In this document: positions 17,600 to 52,030 of the stretch, one piece after another
How the letters are laid out: every line of letters begins with the position of its first letter
Numbering within the stretch: the first letter of the stretch is position 1
Origin: a virus
DNA: 54,154 bases
Strand: one strand, 5' to 3'
IMG/VR virus record: IMGVR_UViG_3300009838_000002
Location: 1 to 54,154 of that record
The notes under the pieces: generated by a model
The model's database searches: none
The model's input: the letters and a program-made list of their open reading frames with translations, nothing else
What the model was told of the DNA's origin: nothing
Program-made: the position numbers and the translations under genes

Positions 17600-19900
17600 C
17601 TATCTGAATCTGTAGCTTGGAGTTATTTCTTTGCCTTGAAAAGGGCTTTCTCGCGTCGTGGGAGCCCCGGTTTCGAGGTAATTTATGACGGTAAATTGAA
17701 GACAATCCTGGCAGTTGTGAACCATTATTCCGTTGGCGGGGAAGTTGTGGTATTTTTCTACTTCTAAGTTATAGACATCCTCAAATCCAAAAGGAGTAAT
17801 GCTTATTACTTTGTGGTTGTGGAACGAAGTCGCCTTTCCTCTTCTTTTTCTTGAAGTCATCCTCCAAAGGCAGGATTGAGAGCAATACATCTGCTTTGGA
17901 GTTCCTTGGTATTTTTCTCCGCATCCTTCACATATTTTTTCAATTCTACTCGCGTCAATAAATGCTCTCATGCTTTTCCCGACTTTATCTCTACTCTCTT
18001 GTGTCCAAGGATTTAGGCTTTTGCCTGGAGAATTTTTGACAAATTCTTTTACGTTTTTTCTTAGACTATTTATCCTTGTAATCTCGTGTTCTTTTTTACT
18101 TAATAGCATCAGGTTTTCCGGGTTGTTGTTTCTTCCATTTCCGTCTATGTGATGAATAATTGATCCCTTATTGTCGAATCCACCGAACCAATGCCATATG
18201 TAGTGATGCTCATAAGTAAAGCTGCCGTCGTTAAGCTCTATAGAAGTATGTCCAGTTGTTTTTACGTTTTCATAGAGCGGCATCAGCGAGTCTCCCCCTT
18301 TAAGATCGCGCAATGCCCTATAAGATCCGTCTCGCATCATAATTAAGTGATCTGGGGTGGCTATTATTTCTCCGTTGTCGTATGTCAATTTCCAAACCTC
18401 TGCGTTCTCTCTTGTCTTGCGGACTCCAGTTGCCTTCGCGGGAATAAGTCTTTTGTGCTCTTCTGAGTAGGCATAGGTGTAAAATTCTTGTCCCACAAGT
18501 TCTTTTATTGGCTTCCAGCCATTCAGAGTCCTAACCAACGAGCTTCCGGACAGGCAATGCTCATAATACGAATCGGCGGCTGGATGGCGTTTTTCGGCTT
18601 CATTCTTCGGTTCTTTGGCCCAAACATAGCCGTCTTCCATTCCCTCAATGAGTATCGGGCAATATCTTCCGTCTATCTGCAATGCAGGCTTTCCAGACAC
18701 CATGCGGTTTAACATGGCCACTACTTTTCCAATGCGATATTCATAGGTGGCTTTCTTGAATTTGGGCGACAAATTGAACGGAGGGTTTTTCATAATGTCC
18801 AGCCTGGTCTTCTCGCTCAAGTCTGACTTCATCACTCCCTGGGAGTCGCAACAGTCCACAAAGTCAAAGTCGGCGAACCAATCCAGGCTTCGCTCAAGGC
18901 CAAGTTCCAGGAAGCGCTCTATTTGAATTTTCTCCGGCATGAACTCGCGAAGGACGTTGAGTCTGTTTCCGGGGAGTCGCTGAGAAAAAAGAAGCGCCGG
19001 CCGATGGTAGCCAAAATCCCATGATCGAATGATCGGGAAGTCGTATTCTGGTTTTAAGCCTTCTCCTGAAACGTGAGTTTCCTTGTTGAATGTCCCGTGA
19101 TAAACCGGATCGCCGTAAATATCAGAACCCCATTCTCCAAGAACGTATCGCTTGTAGAGCGAAGGAGAATGGGCATATTGGCGCTTAATGGTTTCTTTGT
19201 ATCGTTCAGAAACATAAGGAACGTCGTCTATCGAGGCAGAGAAAACAAAAAAACCTTCGGTTCTTTCTTTCTCAAACCTCTTGAATAGCCAATGCCCTTT
19301 ATTCGGAGGGTTTGTCATGAGAAGGCACCACCAAGGGTATCCGTCTCCTTGCCTTCCAATTCTTCCAAGGGCGGTGTCGAAGTATAGTTCTGCAAGTTCA
19401 TTGGCTTCTTCAAATACTGCGAATGAAAGAGGAAGGCCGCCGAGCTTAGCGGCCATGTCGCTTGATCTGAAAAGGACTCTGGACCTGTTTGGAAATAAAA
19501 CCCAGTCTTCTTTTTTGTTTTCTTTGAATGGAATATTGCTTTCTTGTAGGTCCTGAATGAACTCTGCGCGTATCGAATCCCCCATCTCGCGGTAGGTCTT
19601 GCGCCCGATCATTCCTTGTATTCCGGGGTATTTGCGGCACGTTTCTTTAACAACGTCTATTGCAAGTGCTGTCTTTCCGGTGTGCAATGCGCCCTTGAAA
19701 AGAACCACATTTGGCGAACCTGAACTCGGGGCGTAAAGCCTATCTTTTACTTTCTGCTGAATTTCTCCGTGGACTCGATCCTTCGAGTTGTCATACTCTT
19801 CCATCTCCACCTGAGACTGCATAATGTCGGCCATCTGCTGAAACATTATCTCTTCAGGAGAAGGGAAGCGCCCGCCCTGGATCTGGACAGTCTCTTTCAT
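17600..19900 (-). CDS. terL: Terminase large subunit, interrupted by an in-frame intein
   Basis: Walker A GALHTGKT; Walker B LSFAVFEEA. The nuclease motif is split as ..ADSYYEH | intein | CQDCLQF..; the exteins total 485 aa. Confidence 0.85.
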   Translation of the reverse strand: MKETVQIQGGRFPSPEEIMFQQMADIMQSQVEMEEYDNSKDRVHGEIQQKVKDRLYAPSSGSPNVVLFKGALHTGKTALAIDVVKETCRKYPGIQGMIGRKTYREMGDSIRAEFIQDLQESNIPFKENKKEDWVLFPNRSRVLFRSSDMAAKLGGLPLSFAVFEEANELAELYFDTALGRIGRQGDGYPWWCLLMTNPPNKGHWLFKRFEKERTEGFFVFSASIDDVPYVSERYKETIKRQYAHSPSLYKRYVLGEWGSDIYGDPVYHGTFNKETHVSGEGLKPEYDFPIIRSWDFGYHRPALLFSQRLPGNRLNVLREFMPEKIQIERFLELGLERSLDWFADFDFVDCCDSQGVMKSDLSEKTRLDIMKNPPFNLSPKFKKATYEYRIGKVVAMLNRMVSGKPALQIDGRYCPILIEGMEDGYVWAKEPKNEAEKRHPAADSYYEHCLSGSSLVRTLNGWKPIKELVGQEFYTYAYSEEHKRLIPAKATGVRKTRENAEVWKLTYDNGEIIATPDHLIMMRDGSYRALRDLKGGDSLMPLYENVKTTGHTSIELNDGSFTYEHHYIWHWFGGFDNKGSIIHHIDGNGRNNNPENLMLLSKKEHEITRINSLRKNVKEFVKNSPGKSLNPWTQESRDKVGKSMRAFIDASRIEKICEGCGEKYQGTPKQMYCSQSCLWRMTSRKRRGKATSFHNHKVISITPFGFEDVYNLEVEKYHNFPANGIMVHNCQDCLQFTVINYLETGAPTTRESPFQGKEITPSYRFR
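17714..18556 (-). other. Intein (281 aa, residues 449-729 of TerL) carrying an HNH endonuclease and a zinc ribbon
   Basis: Starts at Cys (TGC 18556-18554; CLSGSSLV), has TPDH block B, ends ..GIMVHN (AAC 17716-17714) and is followed by Cys+1. Internal HHIDGNGRNNNPENLMLLSKKEHE and CEGCGEKY..YCSQSC. Confidence 0.85.
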
Positions 19901-20589: not shown

Positions 20590-20748
20590 TTATTCGGGAA
20601 GTTTTCCGGCATCTACGATCTTCCCTTCGATGGAGGTTTCAAAAGAAACAGGAGGAATCTCTACGTCAGGTCCATTTCCTCGTGCTTTCTGTAATGACAA
20701 AATTTTTTCGAGCTCCATTTGAATTTGAGGACTTTCCACATCAGACAT
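20590..20748 (-). CDS. Hypothetical small protein (52 aa)
   Basis: ATG at 20748 overlaps the stop of 20741..21310 (ATGTCTGA); below the ORF-track size cutoff. Confidence 0.4.
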   Translation of the reverse strand: MSDVESPQIQMELEKILSLQKARGNGPDVEIPPVSFETSIEGKIVDAGKLPE

Positions 20749-21310
20749 TTTTCATCAACATTTCTTTCTTTATTTTGTTTCTACACCTGATAGGATGTTT
20801 GTTTATCTCCTCCTCCGTGAGTCTCAATGTTCTATATCCCTTAAAACCCAGCAGAACATCTTTGTTTATGTCCTTGTCTTTGGCTTTTTGTGGCGAGTGC
20901 CAATACCTTCCATCTGCCTCAATTCTTAAATCAGGAGGAATGAAAAAGTCGGCTATGCAAATACCCTCTATTCTCTTTTGCGTCTCGTAGGCAATGCCAA
21001 GTGAGTCCAGGATCTTCATCGTTTTTATTTCGATGGAGGTTTCTTTATTGGGCATTTGTGACTTGCAATAAATGCCGTTGCAACGATAAGAGCAGAATAC
21101 ATTTTGCCTTTTCATTCCAGATGGTCGCCTTATTAGTTCTTTGCCACACTGTTTACACTTTACCGTTTCTCTCTTCATTCGGGCTTTTCCGTGGCAAGTA
21201 TTAGAGCAAAACAATCCCCCGCCGATTTCAATGTAAAAGGGAGTCGTCTTAAATTCTTTACCGCATTGTTGGCATATTCGTATTATGGCTTTTCTATAAG
21301 AGATGCCCAT
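20741..21310 (-). CDS. PD-(D/E)XK (Vsr/DUF559-like) endonuclease with zinc-ribbon repeats; probable free-standing homing endonuclease
   Basis: CQQCGKEF..FCSNTC and CKQCGKEL..FCSYRC repeats; C-terminus ..ADFFIPPDLRIEADGRYWH.. Confidence 0.65.
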   Translation of the reverse strand: MGISYRKAIIRICQQCGKEFKTTPFYIEIGGGLFCSNTCHGKARMKRETVKCKQCGKELIRRPSGMKRQNVFCSYRCNGIYCKSQMPNKETSIEIKTMKILDSLGIAYETQKRIEGICIADFFIPPDLRIEADGRYWHSPQKAKDKDINKDVLLGFKGYRTLRLTEEEINKHPIRCRNKIKKEMLMKNV

Positions 21311-27318: not shown

Positions 27319-28391
27319 AAACCTACACCTATGGGGAGAGGCTGAGGGCGCCGGAGTGTTTCAAGGCAAGGAAAGACTGCAAGGCCGTTCTCGTCGAACC
27401 CGCCAAAGAAGGTTTCTTTCAGGCGGCAGACGGGAAAGCCTACGCCGTAACCCCTGACGGGCTGAAAGCCATCTCGGACATTCCGCCGGACATCGAACCG
27501 ATCTCAGAGGCTTTCGCCCGTTCGGCTTTCTCTTGGAACTCGATGGATCCGGAGAAACGCGGCAGGCAGGTTGCCAGAGAATACGAGGAAACCCTCCGGG
27601 AGGACTGGAGAAACCTTTTCAAACATGCCGACAGCCCGGAGAAGATCGCCATATTAAAAGAGGAATTTTCCCGCTACCAGGCAGGCTACCGAACCCGATA
27701 CCTGAAATGGCTCTCTTCTTTGTCTCGCTGTGCGTCGGCTTTCGTGACTGGTGGAAGCAATTTCCCGGCCCGGCAGATGGAGAAACGAAATGACATCGAA
27801 CACCGGCGATCCGTGGAGTATATGGAGTATAGGGAGCGAGCCCTGGACGCCATCAGGAAGGCCCTCCATCCAGAGTTAAGGCCCATTATGGCGGGTGACT
27901 CTGACGCCTGCGCCAGACTCCGAGAAAAGATCGCCAAGGCCGAAGAACTACAGGAGAAAATGAGGGCCGTCAACAAGTGCGTGAAACGCAAGAAGGGAGG
28001 CCCGGATCTGGATGGGCTTCGGGCAATGGGATACTCTGAGAAGACTATCGAGAGACTTCTTGAGCCCGACGAACTCAGGCGGATCGGCTATCCCGACTAT
28101 GAATTAACAAACAATACCGCCAACATTCGCCGGATGAAACTACGCCTGGAGAAGATCGAGCGGGACCAAGCCGCAGAATTTACCACCGAGGAGAGGGAGA
28201 ACGCCATCCTGGAGGACTGCCCGGCAGACAACAGGATCAAGCTGTTCTTTGGTGGGATCCCGTCGGTTGAAGTGCGGACGAAGCTGAAGAGAAACGGGTT
28301 TCGCTGGACGCCCTCCGGCGGGTATTGGGGGGCATATCGGAACTACAATTCAGCGCAGACGGCGAAGGAGATCGCGGGAGAATTGAAATGA
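27315..28391 (+). CDS. DUF3560-like protein (358 aa)
   Basis: GTGA overlap start; motifs YELTNNTANIRRMKLRLEKIE and C-terminal LKRNGFRWTPSGGYWGAY, recalled from DUF3560-type proteins. Confidence 0.45.
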   Translation: MKTYTYGERLRAPECFKARKDCKAVLVEPAKEGFFQAADGKAYAVTPDGLKAISDIPPDIEPISEAFARSAFSWNSMDPEKRGRQVAREYEETLREDWRNLFKHADSPEKIAILKEEFSRYQAGYRTRYLKWLSSLSRCASAFVTGGSNFPARQMEKRNDIEHRRSVEYMEYRERALDAIRKALHPELRPIMAGDSDACARLREKIAKAEELQEKMRAVNKCVKRKKGGPDLDGLRAMGYSEKTIERLLEPDELRRIGYPDYELTNNTANIRRMKLRLEKIERDQAAEFTTEERENAILEDCPADNRIKLFFGGIPSVEVRTKLKRNGFRWTPSGGYWGAYRNYNSAQTAKEIAGELK

Positions 28392-29980
28392 TCGGCACCC
28401 GCTTTTTCCTCGAACTCTCCGGCGGCCAGGTGCAGGTTCGCTTCGACGCCGACCCGTTTACGGCCGGAACCGTCGCGAAGATCAAAGGGGCGGTTCAATG
28501 GTCAGACTGCTGGACTGTGCCCCTTTCGCGCGTCCGAGAAGTCACGACAAAGGAACAATACGGAGCGGAGATCGTCCTCGGGCCTAAACTTCAGGCCTTT
28601 ATGCGGAAGGGTGGCCGCGAGGAGGTTGATCTTTCTGGTTATTCCTTCGTTTTTCAACCGTATTCTCATCAGATCTCCGGAATTAGCTATTTATTGACTC
28701 GACGAAAGTTCGGACTTTTCGACGAGATGGGTTTAGGGAAAACGCTTCAGGTATTGGCGGCCTTCGACATCCTGCGAAGCAGGGGAAAGGCGTCCAGGCT
28801 TCTTGTGGTATGTCCTAAGACTGCGAGGAAGCATTGGGCGAAGGAGATCAAGAAACACACGCCGCACCTGTCCTTTTCTTTTTTTCCAAAAATAGAGGCC
28901 GAAGTTATACTCATAAATTATGACATCTTGGCCCGCATGGAGCCCATCTGGGGCGCTGTTCTGGTGGCAGACGAAGCCCATAAGATCAAGAACCCGCAGG
29001 CCCAGAGGACGAAAGCCTTCCTGCGCCATGCCGAGGCCGCCTCTCGCGTCTGGCTTGTCACCGGAACCCCGATGAGCAACAAGCCCGAGAGTCTTTATGT
29101 TCCCCTTCGGATCCTGGATCCCATCATGGCTGGGGATGAAGCCTTCTTCCTTGGTAGATACACGATCCAAGAGAAGAAACATTACGCCTCGGGATACAAG
29201 CGGTTGGATGAACTGCGGGAGATCGTCTCCTCTGTTTCGATCCGCCGGCTGAAAAAAGACTGCCTTGATCTCCCACCAATAGTCCGAAAGGCACAATACA
29301 TCGAACTTGAAGGAGATCAACTCGAAGCCTACCGACACATGAACGCGTTCTTTCATGCCGAGGTTGAAAGAACTTCTCAGGAGAAGATACTTGTCCGGGC
29401 GCCTCAATTCCTGGCCCGAATGACTAGACTCAGACAGATCGCGGCGCATCATCAGCTTCTCACTGGAGAGGTTTCCGGGCCCGTCTCAAAGGTTCTGGCC
29501 CTGGATGAACTCCTCGAAGACATCCTGGGAAACGGCGGGCAGGCCGTGGTTTCAACCTGCTACCGAGAGATGAATAAATACCTGGCCCGACGATACAACG
29601 CCGCCTCTCTCCACGGCGGGACCACCGAGAGACAGAGGGCGAAGAGGATCGAGGACTTCCAGGCCGGGATCATTCCTCTGCTTGTAATTCACCCCGAAGT
29701 TGGCGGAATTTCCGTGGATTTGACAAATGCCGCAATTTTGATAAACTACGATAAGGGGTTCTCGTATTCCGAGTGGCTACAAGCAGCCGGCAGAATTCAC
29801 CGCATCGGGCAGAATAAAACCTGCGTCGTGATGGACTTGATCGCGGAAGGAACGATGGATGAGTATATCAACGAGGTTTTGGACTGGAAAGCGTTTCTTG
29901 AGGGGAAGGTGATGAATGAACGAGAAATTACGGAGAAAGTTCTGGATCGAGACAGACTACTCGAATTTTTAAGGAGGTAA
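28388..29980 (+). CDS. SNF2-family helicase (530 aa)
   Basis: ATGA overlap start; DEMGLGKT (motif I), VADEAHKIKN (motif II), later GGISVDLT and AAGRIHRIGQ. Confidence 0.8.
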   Translation: MIGTRFFLELSGGQVQVRFDADPFTAGTVAKIKGAVQWSDCWTVPLSRVREVTTKEQYGAEIVLGPKLQAFMRKGGREEVDLSGYSFVFQPYSHQISGISYLLTRRKFGLFDEMGLGKTLQVLAAFDILRSRGKASRLLVVCPKTARKHWAKEIKKHTPHLSFSFFPKIEAEVILINYDILARMEPIWGAVLVADEAHKIKNPQAQRTKAFLRHAEAASRVWLVTGTPMSNKPESLYVPLRILDPIMAGDEAFFLGRYTIQEKKHYASGYKRLDELREIVSSVSIRRLKKDCLDLPPIVRKAQYIELEGDQLEAYRHMNAFFHAEVERTSQEKILVRAPQFLARMTRLRQIAAHHQLLTGEVSGPVSKVLALDELLEDILGNGGQAVVSTCYREMNKYLARRYNAASLHGGTTERQRAKRIEDFQAGIIPLLVIHPEVGGISVDLTNAAILINYDKGFSYSEWLQAAGRIHRIGQNKTCVVMDLIAEGTMDEYINEVLDWKAFLEGKVMNEREITEKVLDRDRLLEFLRR

Positions 29981-41645: not shown

Positions 41646-41869
41646 AGGGCTTGTCAATACAGGATTTTTTATTAGTGGCTATACTTGTTTTTACGACAAT
41701 GTTATCGTCTTGGAGTATAAATACCCGCCTCGCGGCCATCTCACGCAACGCCGCCCGACTGGTTGTCGTGCAGGAGGCACAACTGCGGGAGCTACGGCGC
41801 GGAGTGAAGACAAGCATTGATTGGACGATACCTGCGGTGCTGCCGAAGAAGTTGGCGGAGGAAAGATAA
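41642..41869 (+). CDS. Small membrane protein (75 aa)
   Basis: TM segment FLLVAILVFTTMLSSW; its last 10 codons are duplicated at the end of the next gene. Confidence 0.55.
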   Translation: MKGLSIQDFLLVAILVFTTMLSSWSINTRLAAISRNAARLVVVQEAQLRELRRGVKTSIDWTIPAVLPKKLAEER

Positions 41870-43101
41870 TGCTCACTCATATTGATCTCTTCAGCGGCAT
41901 CGGCGGTTTCTCCCTGGCCGCTGGATGGGCAGGTTTCGAGACTGTGGTTTTCTGCGAGAAAGATAAATTTTGCCAGAGGGTTCTAAAAAAGCATTGGCCG
42001 GAGGTGCCTTGTGAAAGTGACATCCGCGACTTCGACGGAACAAAATTTAGAGGGGCAACTCTACTTACCGGGGGCTTCCCCTGCCAGCCGTTTTCCTGCG
42101 CCGGACAGCGAAGAGGCAAGGCAGATGACCGTTACCTCTGGCCTCAAATGTTGCGCGTTATTGCCGAAGCAAGGCCCGCTTGGATCGTCGCTGAGAATGT
42201 TGCTGGTATCATCGAGATGGAGCTCGAAGGCGTGTGTGTTGACCTGGAGGCCGAAGGCTATGAAGTCTGGCCGGTTATTATTCCAGCTTGTGCCGTCGGT
42301 GCCCCGCACAGAAGGGATCGAGTCTGGATTATTGCGAACGCCACAGGCCGGGGATGCGGATCACGGAGGCCCTCATGCAAGGGACTCATCAGGGGCACCA
42401 CACTTGACGGGGCAGATCGCCTTGTTAAGGACACCAGATGCGGGGTGCAGCCGCGGGAACTATGCCAGCAGGGAAACCCGGAAAGAGAGGATCGAGGCCA
42501 AGGGTTTGCCTCTAAACCTAAACAGCCAGTTACAGGGAATAGCGATGGGACTTCTGCCGACGCCCCGCGCAGAGAAGCAGTCTCCGCAGAGTCGGGAGGA
42601 CTTTACGCCGAACCTGGCGGCGAGGCTGGCGATGTTGCCAACTCCGATGAGCGGATTCTCGGAGGCGTCACATGGGAGGGCCAACGGGAATTTCGAGCAG
42701 AAAACATTGGCGATAGCAAATTCCCTTCTGCCGACTCCCAAAAGCCAGAACGCCAACTCTCCGGCAATTCACGGCAACGGTGGCCAGGATCTACAGACTG
42801 CAATTCAGATGCTTCCGACGCCGACACAGAGAGACTACAAGAGCGGCAAGGGAAAATGCCAGGAGGAGCGGGAGAGAACGGCGGGGCCATCTCTTTCGGA
42901 GCAGATAGAGGCCCCTGGAAAGAACATTGGCTTCAAGCTCTGGCCCGAATTTGTAGAGCACATGATGGGCTACCTCGAAGGCTTCACCGAGCTTCCCGAC
43001 TGAAGGCGCTGGGAAACAGTATTGTCCCGCAAGTGGCCTACGAGATACTGCGGGGGATTGCAGAAATGGAGCTTCCGCCGAAAGTAGCTGAGGAAAGATA
43101 A
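41869..43101 (+). CDS. DNA (cytosine-5) methyltransferase; catalytic motifs in this frame, central region apparently coded in the +1 frame
   Basis: DLFSGIGGF (I), GGFPCQPFS (IV), ENV (VI), RRDRVWII (VIII) and LGNSIVPQV (X). Residues from about 160 to 380 are R/G/S/D-rich and carry no motif. Confidence 0.6.
   Translation: MLTHIDLFSGIGGFSLAAGWAGFETVVFCEKDKFCQRVLKKHWPEVPCESDIRDFDGTKFRGATLLTGGFPCQPFSCAGQRRGKADDRYLWPQMLRVIAEARPAWIVAENVAGIIEMELEGVCVDLEAEGYEVWPVIIPACAVGAPHRRDRVWIIANATGRGCGSRRPSCKGLIRGTTLDGADRLVKDTRCGVQPRELCQQGNPEREDRGQGFASKPKQPVTGNSDGTSADAPRREAVSAESGGLYAEPGGEAGDVANSDERILGGVTWEGQREFRAENIGDSKFPSADSQKPERQLSGNSRQRWPGSTDCNSDASDADTERLQERQGKMPGGAGENGGAISFGADRGPWKEHWLQALARICRAHDGLPRRLHRASRLKALGNSIVPQVAYEILRGIAEMELPPKVAEER
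42329..43003 (+). other. +1-frame segment encoding the probable target-recognition region of the methyltransferase
   Basis: Six (L/M)L(P/R)TP repeats and LWPEFVEHMMGYLEGFTELPD, followed by TGA at 43001-43003; part of ORF 42011..43003. Confidence 0.5.
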
Positions 43102-50698: not shown

Positions 50699-52030
50699 TT
50701 ATTTCACCCTCCTATTCTTCAGCATCCCGAACTTATGAAGCTCCGGGATCTGTTTTATTGCCCGCCGGCCAATATCAATTCTGGCCTGCTTATTAGGAAC
50801 TTTGAGCAACTTCAGCATATCGTAAGCCCCATGCCTTGCGGCTTCGATAGTCTCTCCCGTGGCGCATAGACTTCCAATTACTCCGTCGTCTCCGGCGCAC
50901 CTCAGATCGCCTTCTGAGTCCACGAAGACATCCAGCCAGTAGCAACTCTCCTCGAACCCCTCGAAGCCTTCTATTTTGACGTTTTTAGCTCGTTCAAGCA
51001 GGGCCTCTCTGCACTTGTCTTTGAGTCCCTTTGGCATACCGGGAGGGAATTCCATGTGAGGATATGGAGGAATTGAAACCCGGAGGGCGATGCAGTAGTC
51101 TTGGGAGAACTCGACATCTCCGACTTTGCCTCTTCCGAGAGAGACAAGGAATTCTCCCCAGTCTCCCTTGAAGAGGGCGAGTTCGTTTTCTAGGGCGCAA
51201 TACCCAGTGCGCGAACAAAATTCGAGCGCCCAGGGCTTGCCCTTGCCATCCACGATGGTATTCAAGTCTATTTCGCCCCGGTAGTTGTTGGCCCTGAGAA
51301 TAGAAGTCATGCGCTTCAGGTTTTTTACAAGCCTATCGGAAGGATCGTCGTTAAAGAACACAAGGGATCCCTCTGATCCCGTAGTTGATCCGAGTCCTCC
51401 CGTCATAAACTTCTTTTCTTCTATTGTGTGGTTAAAGGACTGTGGAACGAAGTCGTTTCCGTCGAAGGTGCCTGCGGTGCTTATTTCTATTCCCTCGACA
51501 AATACTTGCAGGACGAAGCCTTTTTTGGAGTCAAATAGCTTCTCTCTTTCCATGTGTTCGATCATCTCGATCATGTCTTCCGGGGAGTCGGAGACGTAGG
51601 ACGTGAAGCAACTCTGGTTGTCGTCAACCTTAACGACGTATCTTTCCGGGTTTTGTTCGACGAAACGAATGGCTTCTTTGGGGGAATTAAACTCATGGGT
51701 TTCGGGGAAGTTTATCCCCGCTATCTTCATCAGCTTCATTCCGTAGGCCCGATCTAGTTCCGCCCTGTCGTTAAACGCCCCTCCGCCAACGACGTTGTAG
51801 GTTCTCTTCAAGTAGTCTGCGATCTTCCCGTCGCCTACCATGTCAAAAAACACAACATCCGGGTTTGTCCTCAGGCCGTCTTCGAGAGTATTTACTTTCT
51901 CGGTCATGCCTTCATAAGCCCTCCGATGATCCTTCTCTTTGATGAAGACGCAAACACTATGCCCCTCGCGCTGTAGCCGAGGAACCATGAACAGAGAGTC
52001 GCCCTCTTTGGAGTAGATCAATATTTTCAA
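50699..52030 (-). CDS. PurD-like ATP-grasp protein (443 aa)
   Basis: Length and layout resemble GAR synthetase: Rossmann-like N-terminus MKILIYSKEGD, ..RYVVKVDD.., FMTGGLGSTTGSEG (compare GPNTGGMG), LEFCSRTGY (compare EFNxRFGDPE). Confidence 0.6.
   Translation of the reverse strand: MKILIYSKEGDSLFMVPRLQREGHSVCVFIKEKDHRRAYEGMTEKVNTLEDGLRTNPDVVFFDMVGDGKIADYLKRTYNVVGGGAFNDRAELDRAYGMKLMKIAGINFPETHEFNSPKEAIRFVEQNPERYVVKVDDNQSCFTSYVSDSPEDMIEMIEHMEREKLFDSKKGFVLQVFVEGIEISTAGTFDGNDFVPQSFNHTIEEKKFMTGGLGSTTGSEGSLVFFNDDPSDRLVKNLKRMTSILRANNYRGEIDLNTIVDGKGKPWALEFCSRTGYCALENELALFKGDWGEFLVSLGRGKVGDVEFSQDYCIALRVSIPPYPHMEFPPGMPKGLKDKCREALLERAKNVKIEGFEGFEESCYWLDVFVDSEGDLRCAGDDGVIGSLCATGETIEAARHGAYDMLKLLKVPNKQARIDIGRRAIKQIPELHKFGMLKNRRVK

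What the first reader, a model, noticed from the sequence alone, without database searches (positions are those of the whole stretch)
17714..18556. HNH-type intein splits the nuclease motif of the large terminase
Residues 449-729 of the 766-aa TerL ORF have the canonical splice junctions. These are Cys1 (CLSGSSLV), block B TPDH, a C-terminal ..MVHN, and a following Cys+1.

Removing this segment joins ..AADSYYEH to CQDCLQFTVINY. That restores an H-x-x-D-x-L-Q-F motif of the kind found at the TerL nuclease active site.

The homing module is an HNH nuclease (HHIDGNGRNNNPENLMLLSKKEHE) plus a zinc ribbon, not LAGLIDADG. Packaging therefore depends on protein splicing.
Basis: partly seen in the sequence, partly recalled or inferred. 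Interest (0 to 1): 0.65.

Follow-up and report, generated by a model that had tools for sequence, protein, structure and literature searches.

The report
HNH intein inside terminase nuclease motif
The phage's DNA-packaging enzyme (large terminase) is interrupted, between two metal-binding residues of its DNA-cutting site, by a self-splicing mobile protein element (intein) that carries an HNH nuclease; the call is real and well supported, but it is a new example of a known kind of element.

Summary
The 766-aa TerL ORF (17600-19900, minus strand) carries a 281-aa insert, aa 449-729 (nt 18556-17714).

- **Intein signatures.** The insert matches Pfam Intein_splicing, NCBIfam intein_Nterm and intein_Cterm, and Pfam HNH_3, all above the curated cut-offs. 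It has Cys1, TPDH, terminal HN and Cys+1.
- **Fold.** An AF2 model (pLDDT 87) matches solved mini-inteins.
- **Composition.** The insert is GC-poor: 0.41 against 0.47 for the exteins.
- **Empty site.** A 47%-identical TerL from a syntenic phage contig lacks exactly this segment (…YYEH|LQDALQF…). A 50%-identical TerL carries an allelic intein at the same point.
- **Position in the active site.** Profile alignment to SPP1 G2P places H448 on His400 and D732 on Asp403. Those two residues bind Mn2+ and are required for nuclease activity.
- **Mobility.** A related HNH intein (50% identity) sits two residues away in a TerL that is only 28% identical.
- **Recurrence.** Inteins occupy this same motif in cultured phages BL3 and CL2 (split inteins) and TJE1, and in several metagenomic TerLs.

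Verdict: this is a genuine class-1 HNH intein and a new member of a known kind. That splicing is required for packaging, and that the HNH drives homing, are inferred rather than shown.

The parts
17600..19900 (-). TerL precursor ORF: 766 aa plus the stop codon.
   Evidence: ORF listing. Pfam Terminase_3 and Terminase_6N in aa 70-259. PHROG 2 'terminase large subunit'.
18557..19900 (-). N-extein, aa 1-448. It holds the ATPase domain and nuclease motifs I and II, and ends in His448.
   Evidence: Alignments A1 and A2. The extein profile matches D6E TerL 5OE8 with E=4e-13. The AF2 model of the spliced extein matches D6E, Sf6, T4 and HK97 TerL.
19670..19693 (-). Walker A / P-loop, GALHTGKT (aa 70-77).
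   Evidence: Read directly from the sequence. It lies inside the Terminase_3/6N match and aligns to the G-x-x-x-x-GKT of SPP1 G2P.
19016..19018 (-). Asp295 (SWDFG), nuclease motif I catalytic Asp.
   Evidence: Invariant in A2 and A4. Falls in the 'GLDFGY' block of SPP1 G2P in the hhalign alignment.
18845..18847 (-). Asp352 (CCDSQG), nuclease motif II acidic residue.
   Evidence: Invariant in A2 and A4.
18557..18559 (-). His448, the -1 residue of the intein. It is the equivalent of SPP1 G2P His400, a metal ligand.
   Evidence: Invariant in A2 and A4. hhalign against SPP1 G2P. PMC2685612.
17714..18556 (-). Intein, 281 aa (precursor aa 449-729).
   Evidence: Absent from the intein-free homolog P0003/L004. 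GC 0.413 against 0.474 for the exteins. AF2 pLDDT 86.9. Foldseek top hits are mini-inteins.
18257..18556 (-). N-terminal splicing lobe (about aa 449-548). Block A is Cys449 (CLSGSSLV). Block B is TPDH (aa 515-518).
   Evidence: TIGR01445 intein_Nterm, aa 449-521. T67 and H70 (intein numbering) are invariant in A3.
18083..18211 (-). HNH_3 endonuclease core (aa 564-606), containing IIHHIDGNGRNNNPENLMLLSKKEHE.
   Evidence: Pfam HNH_3, 39.5 bits against a cut-off of 24.8. PHROG 15471, 1891 and 99, all named 'HNH endonuclease'. The motif is conserved in allele P0002.
17870..17932 (-). Putative zinc ribbon, C657-x2-C660-x12-C673-x3-C677.
   Evidence: The four Cys are conserved in P0002 and P0139. 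Beta strands are predicted at intein residues 206-208 and 215-217. PHROG 1271 matches aa 650-691. Zinc binding is inferred.
17714..17833 (-). C-terminal splicing lobe (about aa 690-729). Blocks F and G read ...DVYNLEVEKYHNFPANGIMVHN, with Asn729 terminal.
   Evidence: TIGR01443 intein_Cterm, 38 bits against 15.6. phmmer matches to the C-terminal lobes of DnaB and DnaX mini-inteins.
17603..17713 (-). C-extein, aa 730-766. It starts with Cys730 (+1 nucleophile), then Gln, then Asp732.
   Evidence: Predicted helix 447-461 in the spliced model.
17705..17707 (-). Asp732, the equivalent of SPP1 G2P Asp403 (essential metal ligand).
   Evidence: Conserved in 90% of A2 sequences. hhalign. PMC2685612.

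Best explanation
The terL gene of this phage carries a contiguous, in-frame class-1 intein. The intein's two HINT splicing lobes flank an HNH_3 endonuclease and a Cys4 zinc-ribbon DNA-binding module.

It is inserted one residue into the C-terminal helix of the RNase-H-like nuclease domain. That places it between His448 and Cys730-Gln-Asp732, so it separates the two residues of the H-x-x-D metal-binding motif.

Inferred mechanism:
1. The 766-aa precursor is translated.
2. Cys449 performs the N-S acyl shift.
3. Cys730 attacks to form the branched intermediate.
4. Asn729 cyclises.
5. A 485-aa TerL with an intact H-C-Q-D motif is released, together with a free 281-aa intein.

Only the spliced TerL is expected to cut concatemeric DNA, so making infectious particles should require splicing.

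The freed (or precursor-embedded) HNH module is expected to cut or nick intein-less terL alleles during co-infection. Recombinational repair would then copy the intein in, together with the Cys+1 codon.

Shown here: the anatomy, family membership, the empty-site allele, the position in the active-site motif, and the signatures of horizontal mobility. Inferred: splicing activity, inactivity of the precursor nuclease, and HNH cleavage specificity.
For: Intein identity:
- Intein_splicing, intein_Nterm, intein_Cterm and HNH_3 are all above curated cut-offs.
- The AF2 intein model has pLDDT 86.9. Its top Foldseek hits are solved mini-inteins, with target-normalised TM-score up to 0.86.
- Cys1, TxxH, HN and Cys+1 are present and conserved across 21 relatives.

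Empty site and allelic copy:
- P0003 (486 aa, 47% identical, on a syntenic 53.9-kb contig) lacks exactly the 281 aa and has Leu at +1.
- P0002 (50% identical TerL) carries an allelic intein at the same point.

Signatures of mobility:
- Intein GC is 0.41 against 0.47 for the exteins, in both alleles.
- The two allelic inteins are 61.6% identical while their exteins are 50.1% identical.
- The P0139 intein is 50.5% identical to this one while the exteins are only 27.9% identical.
- The same intein family gave at least 457 confirmed stretches in IMG/VR, in many different host proteins.

Active-site position:
- H448 is invariant and D732 is 90% conserved in the extein family.
- The extein profile aligns this motif to NDHQLDADRY of D6E TerL.
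- hhalign aligns it to DNH400TID403ATRY of SPP1 G2P.
- His400 and Asp403 coordinate Mn2+, and H400A and D403N abolish nuclease activity (PMC2685612).

The site tolerates splicing elements in viable phages:
- Brochothrix phage BL3 gp2/gp3 and Lactobacillus phage CL2 carry split inteins at H|C-x-D-A.
- Tetrasphaera phage TJE1 carries an intein one residue downstream.
Against: - No experiment shows splicing or homing.
- The block-F position-4 Asp, which assists catalysis in well-studied class-1 inteins (my own knowledge of the Mtu RecA intein), is Asn here (VYNLEV). The same Asn is found in BL3, CL2, TJE1 and P0002, so it is probably tolerated.
- The HNH segment has no detectable sequence relative with a solved structure, so its catalytic residues are assigned by family profile only.
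- The genome is a metagenomic assembly of unknown host, so viability of this particular phage is not established.
- The spliced-extein model is only moderately confident (pLDDT 69.8).
Confidence: 0.85

Rival explanations
1. The splicing lobes still work, but the HNH module has decayed and no longer promotes homing. The element would then be a vertically inherited passenger on the way to becoming a mini-intein.
For: - Mini and degenerate versions exist at the same TerL site. L053 is a mini-intein at DDH|CADALRY. P0172, P0075 and TJE1 have mid-regions with no HNH signal.
- The HNH/middle region is the least conserved part between the two alleles: 51.5% identity against 71-72% in the splicing lobes.
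Against: - The HNH_3 match is well above the Pfam cut-off.
- The motif HH-D-NGRNNNP-NL...SKK-H and all four zinc-ribbon Cys are retained in P0002 and P0139 despite 38-50% overall divergence.
- The ORF has no frameshift or stop.
- Intein identity far exceeds extein identity with P0139, which argues for relatively recent lateral movement.
Confidence: 0.2
2. The insert is a splicing-dead relic. TerL would be non-functional and the contig would represent a defective phage or prophage remnant.
For: - Block-F Asp is replaced by Asn.
- No experimental data exist, and this is a metagenomic assembly.
Against: - All primary nucleophiles and the TxxH and HN residues are intact in two alleles that have diverged to 62% identity.
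- The Asn variant is shared with cultured, plaque-forming phages BL3, CL2 and TJE1.
- The surrounding structural module is intact and syntenic with relatives.
Confidence: 0.05
3. The HNH module has been co-opted as a packaging accessory nuclease, like the HK97 gp74-type HNH proteins that assist terminase at cos sites, rather than acting as a homing endonuclease.
For: [quoted passage not shown] 2014, cited in PMC10448857; PMC3592412 abstract).
Against: - The domain belongs to HNH_3 and to PHROGs that also annotate free-standing homing-type HNH genes.
- The intein-free relative L004 has no gene with an HNH Pfam hit among the 15 genes on either side of terL, so this lineage packages DNA without one.
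- The same intein family carries the same HNH module in unrelated host proteins such as dCTP deaminase and the gp25-like baseplate protein.
Confidence: 0.03
4. Splicing is conditional, for example redox-gated through Cys449/Cys730 or dependent on DNA or assembly. It would then work as a post-translational switch that keeps the terminase nuclease off until late infection.
For: - The position lies between two metal ligands.
- Cys is present at both 1 and +1.
- Inteins recur at all three nuclease motifs of this TerL family.
- Published proposals hold that intein placement in active sites can be regulatory (discussion in PMC5050341).
Against: - There is no direct evidence.
- Conserved active-site motifs are also the expected safe havens for selfish elements.
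- An intein-free relative with the same genome organisation exists, so no such switch is needed.
Confidence: 0.08

Closest known systems
Mycobacteriophage TerL inteins (Kelley et al. 2016, mBio; PMC5050341)
   Same: - Inteins are embedded in catalytic motifs of phage large terminases.
- They are shown there to splice, and some to cleave intein-less alleles.
- The logic is the same: splicing is needed to rebuild an active site.
   Different: - All seven insertion points reported there lie in the N-terminal ATPase domain. This one lies in the C-terminal nuclease domain, inside the H-x-x-D metal-binding motif.
- Only an 'identifiable HEN domain' is mentioned there for the TerL inteins, with no type given in the passages read. 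This one carries HNH_3 plus a zinc ribbon.
In-frame HNH inteins (Dalgaard et al. 1997; actinobacteriophage survey, bioRxiv 10.1101/2025.01.02.630785)
   Same: - The architecture is the same: an HNH endonuclease in frame between the two splicing lobes.
- The survey describes this as a rare, non-canonical type, and lists terminase large subunit among the four host proteins that carry non-canonical homing endonucleases (of which in-frame HNH is one of four types).
   Different: - Sequence identity to anything in cultured phages is low, at most 40% and only over the N lobe.
- The insertion point in the nuclease motif is not described in the passages I could read.
Split TerL inteins of Brochothrix phage BL3 (gp2/gp3) and Lactobacillus phage CL2
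   Same: - The insertion point is identical: ...NH|C-I-D-A-T-R-Y in BL3 and ...DH|C-M-D-A-T-R-Y in CL2.
- The N lobe is related (39.8% identity to BL3).
- Block F carries the same Asn.
- The free-standing CL2 HNH gene has the same HNH plus CxxC...CSxxC zinc-ribbon make-up.
   Different: - Those are split inteins in a 'fractured gene' layout. BL3 has no endonuclease between the halves, and CL2 has a separate HNH ORF.
- They sit in PBSX/SPP1-type TerLs.
- The window element is one contiguous polypeptide in a distant TerL lineage.
Fractured genes with split inteins and free-standing endonucleases (Dassa et al. 2009; PMC2677866)
   Same: A homing endonuclease associated with an intein inside phage DNA-metabolism and packaging genes, including a gp17-like terminase.
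   Different: - Those loci are split, with GIY-YIG or Vsr-like endonucleases.
- Here the gene is unbroken and the endonuclease is HNH.
SPP1 G2P / D6E large terminase nuclease domain (PDB 2WBN family, 5OE8)
   Same: - The extein is a homolog: profile E=4e-13 to D6E and hhalign probability 96.5% to G2P.
- It has the same D...D...H-x-x-D catalytic constellation.
   Different: - These proteins are intein-free.
- Identity is only 15-20%.

Membership tests
Intein (class 1) | HINT-fold splicing domain detected by curated models (blocks A/B and F/G). | tested here: met
   - PF14890: 63.8 bits against a cut-off of 35.8.
- TIGR01445: 28.6 bits against 24.5.
- TIGR01443: 38 bits against 15.6.
- The AF2 model matches solved mini-inteins.
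Intein (class 1) | Nucleophile at intein position 1 (Cys/Ser) and at +1 of the C-extein (Cys/Ser/Thr). | tested here: met
   Cys449 and Cys730. The +1 Cys column is nearly invariant in A3.
Intein (class 1) | Block B TxxH, and terminal His-Asn in block G. | tested here: met
   TPDH at intein residues 67-70 and ...MVHN at residues 278-281. T67 and H70 are invariant and N281 is nearly invariant.
Intein (class 1) | Block F position-4 Asp. | tested here: not met
   The residue is Asn (DVYNLEV). The same Asn occurs in P0002, BL3, CL2, TJE1, L012 and L015. Other relatives have Asp or Cys. The residue is common in class-1 inteins but not universal, so this is a caveat and not a ground for exclusion.
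Intein (class 1) | In-frame insert precisely absent from homologous host proteins, and excision restores a conserved host motif. | tested here: met
   P0003 reads ...YYEH|LQDALQF... with no insert. More than 3,000 TerL relatives exist, and most of the 150 listed are 430-550 aa long.
Intein (class 1) | Demonstrated protein splicing (ligated exteins plus free intein). | not testable with these tools
   This needs expression followed by western blot or mass spectrometry.
Class 3 intein | WCT triad, with Cys at block F position 4 as the first nucleophile and usually no Cys1/Ser1. | tested here: not met
   Cys1 is present and block F position 4 is Asn.
HNH homing endonuclease (HNH_3 type) nested in an intein | HNH (beta-beta-alpha-metal) motif recognised by the family profile. 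| tested here: met
   PF13392: 39.5 bits against a cut-off of 24.8, aa 564-606. PHROG HNH families down to E=6e-14.
HNH homing endonuclease (HNH_3 type) nested in an intein | Located between the N- and C-terminal splicing lobes, at the canonical endonuclease insertion point. | tested here: met
   Mini-intein structures align to both ends of the model across roughly 280 columns, leaving the ~140-aa middle as an insert. The Pfam Intein_splicing match spans aa 463-729 around the HNH.
HNH homing endonuclease (HNH_3 type) nested in an intein | Site-specific cleavage of the intein-less allele, and homing. | not testable with these tools
   Only indirect signs are available: low GC, and intein identity higher than extein identity.
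Large terminase (TerL), RNase-H-like nuclease domain | N-terminal P-loop ATPase of the terminase families. | tested here: met
   - Terminase_3: 46.3 bits against a cut-off of 23.2.
- Terminase_6N: 26.7 bits against 22.
- Foldseek to D6E, Sf6, T4 and HK97 TerL.
Large terminase (TerL), RNase-H-like nuclease domain | Catalytic acidic residues plus the H-x-x-D metal-binding motif (SPP1 D266, D321, H400, D403). | tested here: met
   D295, D352 and H448 are invariant and D732 is 90% conserved. H448/D732 align to H400/D403. The functional role comes from PMC2685612.
Naturally split intein / fractured gene | Host gene broken into two ORFs, each carrying one intein half. | tested here: not met
   A single uninterrupted 766-aa ORF. 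BL3 and CL2 are the split counterparts.
Packaging-associated HNH protein (HK97 gp74 type) | Separate small HNH gene next to the terminase genes that is required for cos cleavage. | tested here: not met
   The HNH lies inside an intein. The relative L004 has no gene with an HNH hit near terL.

The most novel reading that the evidence does not exclude
The third nuclease motif of TerL (H-x-x-D), and the other two catalytic motifs of the TerL nuclease domain, form a widely used intein hot spot that I did not find described in the literature I could search. It is occupied by contiguous HNH inteins, mini-inteins and naturally split inteins. In this reading, splicing at this position is conditional and works as a post-translational gate: TerL's DNA-cutting activity stays off until the right moment of infection.
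Probability: 0.1. Interest if true: 0.6.

Novelty: new member of a known kind. Interest (0 to 1): 0.33.

Why it matters
- **Annotation.** The true TerL of this phage lineage is a 485-aa spliced product, not a 766-aa protein.
- **Intein biology.** The one systematic TerL intein survey I could read (mycobacteriophages) found only ATPase-domain sites. This case extends TerL inteins to the nuclease active site.
- **A small comparative series at one site.** Contiguous HNH, mini, degenerate and naturally split forms all occupy the same few residues of a conserved motif. Such a series could be used to study how inteins become split and how endonucleases enter and leave them.
- **Possible tools.** The BL3 and CL2 split inteins at this site are candidate protein-ligation tools. 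This is my inference and was not tested.

None of this changes current understanding of inteins or terminases.

Tried and rejected
**Searches that found nothing**
- blastn of the whole gene against 50,697 phage records: no match.
- phmmer of the single spliced extein against PDB sequences: nothing. A family profile was needed instead.
- phmmer of the HNH/zinc-ribbon segment against PDB: only a spurious calmodulin hit. No catalytic-residue mapping onto a solved HNH was therefore possible.
- Scan of all six frames of the window for a second intein or HNH paralog: none.
- Search for flanking direct or inverted repeats, as a transposon-like signature: only short chance matches, none at the junctions. 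This is what homing, as opposed to transposition, would leave.

**Literature**
- Five full-text searches found TerL inteins and HNH inteins. None described an insertion in the TerL H-x-x-D motif or the BL3/CL2 split terminases. Subscription papers are not covered, so prior description cannot be excluded.

It was re-run as A4.

**Ideas rejected**
- The first catalytic candidate I considered for the third motif was D443 (AADS), because it was invariant among the four closest sequences. I rejected it after the ten-sequence alignment and the SPP1 and D6E alignments placed the conserved pair at H448/D732.
- Class 3 intein and packaging-HNH readings were rejected; see the membership table.
Full report
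**1. Observation**

The minus-strand ORF 17600..19900 encodes 766 aa. CLSGSSLV begins at residue 449 and ...MVHN ends at residue 729. That is nt 18556..17714, exactly the coordinates given. Removing these 281 residues leaves a 485-aa protein in which ...AADSYYEH is joined to CQDCLQFTVINY.

Curated models recognise the insert:
- Pfam Intein_splicing: E=2e-17, 63.8 bits against a cut-off of 35.8.
- Pfam HNH_3: E=4.5e-10, 39.5 bits against 24.8, aa 564-606.
- NCBIfam intein_Nterm (aa 449-521) and intein_Cterm (aa 708-730), both above cut-off.

The flanks match Terminase_3 and Terminase_6N and PHROG 2, 'terminase large subunit'.

GC falls to 0.36-0.40 inside the insert, against 0.47-0.51 around it. 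Over the whole segments, the intein is 0.413 and the exteins 0.474.

No second intein or HNH paralog exists in the window. No repeats flank the insert.

**2. It is an intein, with an empty-site allele**

Only ten proteins in the 5.8-billion-sequence collection resemble the spliced extein at E<=1e-5.
- P0003 (486 aa, 47% identical) lacks the segment precisely and reads ...DDGYYEH|LQDALQFLAINY.
- P0002 (779 aa, 50% identical) has an allelic intein at the same point, with CLSGETQ...MVHN|CQDALQF.

The contigs encoding these two proteins share with the window the order of the upstream ORF, terL, the SU10-like portal and the major head protein. They are therefore related phages, one with the insert and one without.

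Across 21 related inteins, T67 and H70 of block B are invariant. The terminal Asn and the +1 Cys are nearly invariant.

An AlphaFold2 model of the intein has mean pLDDT 86.9. Its best PDB matches are solved mini-inteins: Ssp and Npu DnaB, Spl DnaX and Mtu RecA, with target-normalised TM-score up to 0.86. These align to both ends of the model and leave the ~140-aa middle as an insert. So the HNH sits at the canonical endonuclease insertion point.

**3. Where it sits in TerL**

In a ten-sequence extein alignment, D295 (SWDFG), D352 (CCDSQG) and H448 are invariant. The Asp three residues after H448 in the spliced protein (D732 of the precursor) is conserved in 90% of sequences.

A profile of this alignment finds the D6E large terminase (5OE8, E=4e-13) and aligns the motif to NDHQLDADRY.

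hhalign against SPP1 G2P gives 96.5% probability and E=1e-9. It aligns YEHCQDCLQFTVI to DNH400TID403ATRYAFE.

Smits et al. 2009 showed that His400 and Asp403 coordinate the soaked Mn2+, and that H400A and D403N disrupt nuclease activity (PMC2685612).

The AF2 model of the spliced extein has pLDDT 69.8 overall, and about 88 for residues 451-460. It places H448 and D451 at the start of one helix, residues 447-461. The model as a whole matches the TerL structures of D6E, Sf6, T4 and HK97.

It follows from the helix position and the ligand roles that the precursor nuclease should be inactive. That step is an inference, not a result.

**4. Homing module**

The middle of the intein carries IIHHIDGNGRNNNPENLMLLSKKEHE (HNH_3) and a Cys4 motif, C657-x2-C660-x12-C673-x3-C677. 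Both are conserved in P0002 and in P0139.

The Cys4 region matches PHROG 1271 and 15471, both named 'HNH endonuclease'. The model predicts it as a short beta-hairpin followed by a helix.

No solved structure is detectably similar in sequence to this region. Catalytic residues and zinc binding are therefore assigned by family profile and by pattern only.

**5. Evidence of mobility**

- The two allelic inteins are more alike (61.6%) than their exteins (50.1%).
- P0139 is a TerL only 27.9% identical in its exteins. It carries an HNH intein 50.5% identical to this one, inserted two residues upstream at ...DDFY|SH..., using Ser as the +1 nucleophile.
- The intein family, marked by DSLMPLY and DVY[CDN] motifs, gave at least 457 confirmed stretches in IMG/VR. 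By the names and Pfam hits of the relatives, its hosts include dCTP deaminases and a gp25-like baseplate protein.

This is the pattern expected of an element that moves laterally into conserved motifs.

**6. How unusual is it?**

Inteins in phage terminases are well known, and TerL is the commonest intein host in mycobacteriophages. However, all seven sites reported there are in the ATPase domain (PMC5050341).

In-frame HNH inteins are a recognised but rare type. Terminase large subunit is among the four host proteins that carry non-canonical homing endonucleases in that survey (bioRxiv 10.1101/2025.01.02.630785).

I found no paper describing an intein in the TerL H-x-x-D motif. Public sequences nevertheless show that the site is used repeatedly.

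| Source | Junction or position | Form |
|---|---|---|
| Brochothrix phage BL3 gp2/gp3 | ...DKDNH\|C...HN\|CIDATRYAFE | split intein |
| Lactobacillus phage CL2 | ...KAHDH\|C... | fractured gene: free-standing HNH plus zinc-ribbon ORF, with an unannotated IntC/C-extein frame |
| Tetrasphaera phage TJE1 | one residue downstream | contiguous intein |
| IMG/VR L012, L015 | DHA\|CDAL | HNH intein |
| IMG/VR L053 | DDH\|CADALRY | mini-intein |
| IMG/VR L046, L009 | same region; L046 reads ...ENNH\|SRKALSY | HNH inteins |
| P0172, P0075 | H\|CxDA | no HNH motif evident in the mid-region |

Within the same TerL family, other inteins sit next to the other catalytic motifs:
- P0074 and P0151, next to motif I.
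- P0050, next to motif II.
- P0141, just after the motif III Asp.

The window element is thus a new, divergent member of a known kind, at most 38-40% identical to anything outside its own lineage. The site is a recurrent target, not a one-off.

**7. Mechanism and rivals**

The best explanation (confidence 0.85) is an active class-1 intein whose excision rebuilds the H-C-Q-D motif. Nuclease activity, and hence packaging, would depend on splicing. The HNH module would promote homing into intein-less terL alleles, with co-conversion of the Leu-to-Cys +1 codon.

The main caveat is Asn in place of the block-F Asp. Three cultured phages share it at this site, so it is probably tolerated.

Rivals:
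- A decayed HNH in a still-splicing intein (0.2; this overlaps with the main explanation).
- A splicing-dead relic (0.05).
- A packaging-helper HNH (0.03).
- Conditional, regulatory splicing (0.08).

**8. Verdict**

Novelty: new member of a known kind. Interest is about 0.33. It is a clean, correct call and a useful annotation, and it points to a little-described intein hot spot in the terminase nuclease domain. It does not challenge current understanding.

Noticed in passing
window 20741-21310 (-): A 189-aa free-standing ORF with two CxxC...CSxxC zinc ribbons followed by a DUF559/Vsr-like endonuclease domain (Pfam DUF559, 24.5 bits against a cut-off of 20.6). Its zinc-ribbon part hits PHROG 1271 and 15471, the same families that the intein's middle region hits. 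It lies in a GC-poor stretch (0.39-0.42) about 400 bp upstream of the ORF that precedes terL. It has no counterpart in the syntenic relatives L004 and L006. It is probably a second, independent homing-endonuclease gene.
   Followed up: partly
L001 (Lactobacillus phage CL2, NC_028835) 506-2760: terL is a fractured gene with three parts. The annotated 'terminase large subunit' ends inside an N-intein half (...KAHDH|CLTGDT...). A separate HNH plus zinc-ribbon ORF follows. An unannotated frame from about 2481 encodes the C-intein half and the C-extein (...DVYNMEVESHHNFAVDGGFIVHN|CMDATRYF...).
   Followed up: partly
L002 (Brochothrix phage BL3, NC_015254) 727-2607: gp2 ('terminase large subunit') and gp3 (unnamed, 98 aa) together form a naturally split intein. 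It sits at exactly the same TerL position as the window's intein...DKDNH|CVTGDT... in gp2 and ...GGFIIHN|CIDATRYAFE in gp3. The spliced junction is nearly identical to SPP1 G2P DKDNH400TID403ATRYAFE.
   Followed up: partly
P0050, P0074, P0151, P0141, P0139 (relatives of the extein; no window coordinates): In the same TerL family, inteins lie beside all three nuclease motifs:
- after WDFGxxxP|C (motif I; P0074, P0151);
- at FC|...|CDPAG (motif II; P0050);
- at HPMD|C (P0141). The first three have ...CGN|C and P0141 ...AGN|C termini; P0141 shows LAGLIDADG-like motifs.
- at Y|SH (P0139), an HNH intein 50.5% identical to the window's although the exteins are only 27.9% identical.
   Followed up: partly
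L012 414-1145 and 1634-3607; L015 887-1585 and 1573-3612: In these IMG/VR contigs the TerL profile matches two separate reading frames, one covering the ATPase part and one the nuclease part. This is in addition to the HNH intein in motif III. A further intervening element, a frameshift or a split gene may be present.
   Followed up: no
window 18011-18013 (Asn711, intein residue 263): Block F position 4 is Asn instead of the usual Asp. The same substitution occurs in P0002, BL3, CL2, TJE1, L012 and L015, all of them TerL motif-III inteins. Relatives in other host proteins have Asp or Cys. This may be a lineage marker or an adaptation to this extein context.
   Followed up: partly
window 41821-43101 (+), 28325-29980 (+), 50699-52030 (-): Other genes of the contig: a C-5 cytosine DNA methylase (E=5e-43), an SNF2-family helicase (E=2e-35) and an ATP-grasp protein resembling phosphoribosylglycinamide synthetase (GARS_A, E=8e-11). 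The last is unusual for a phage.
   Followed up: no
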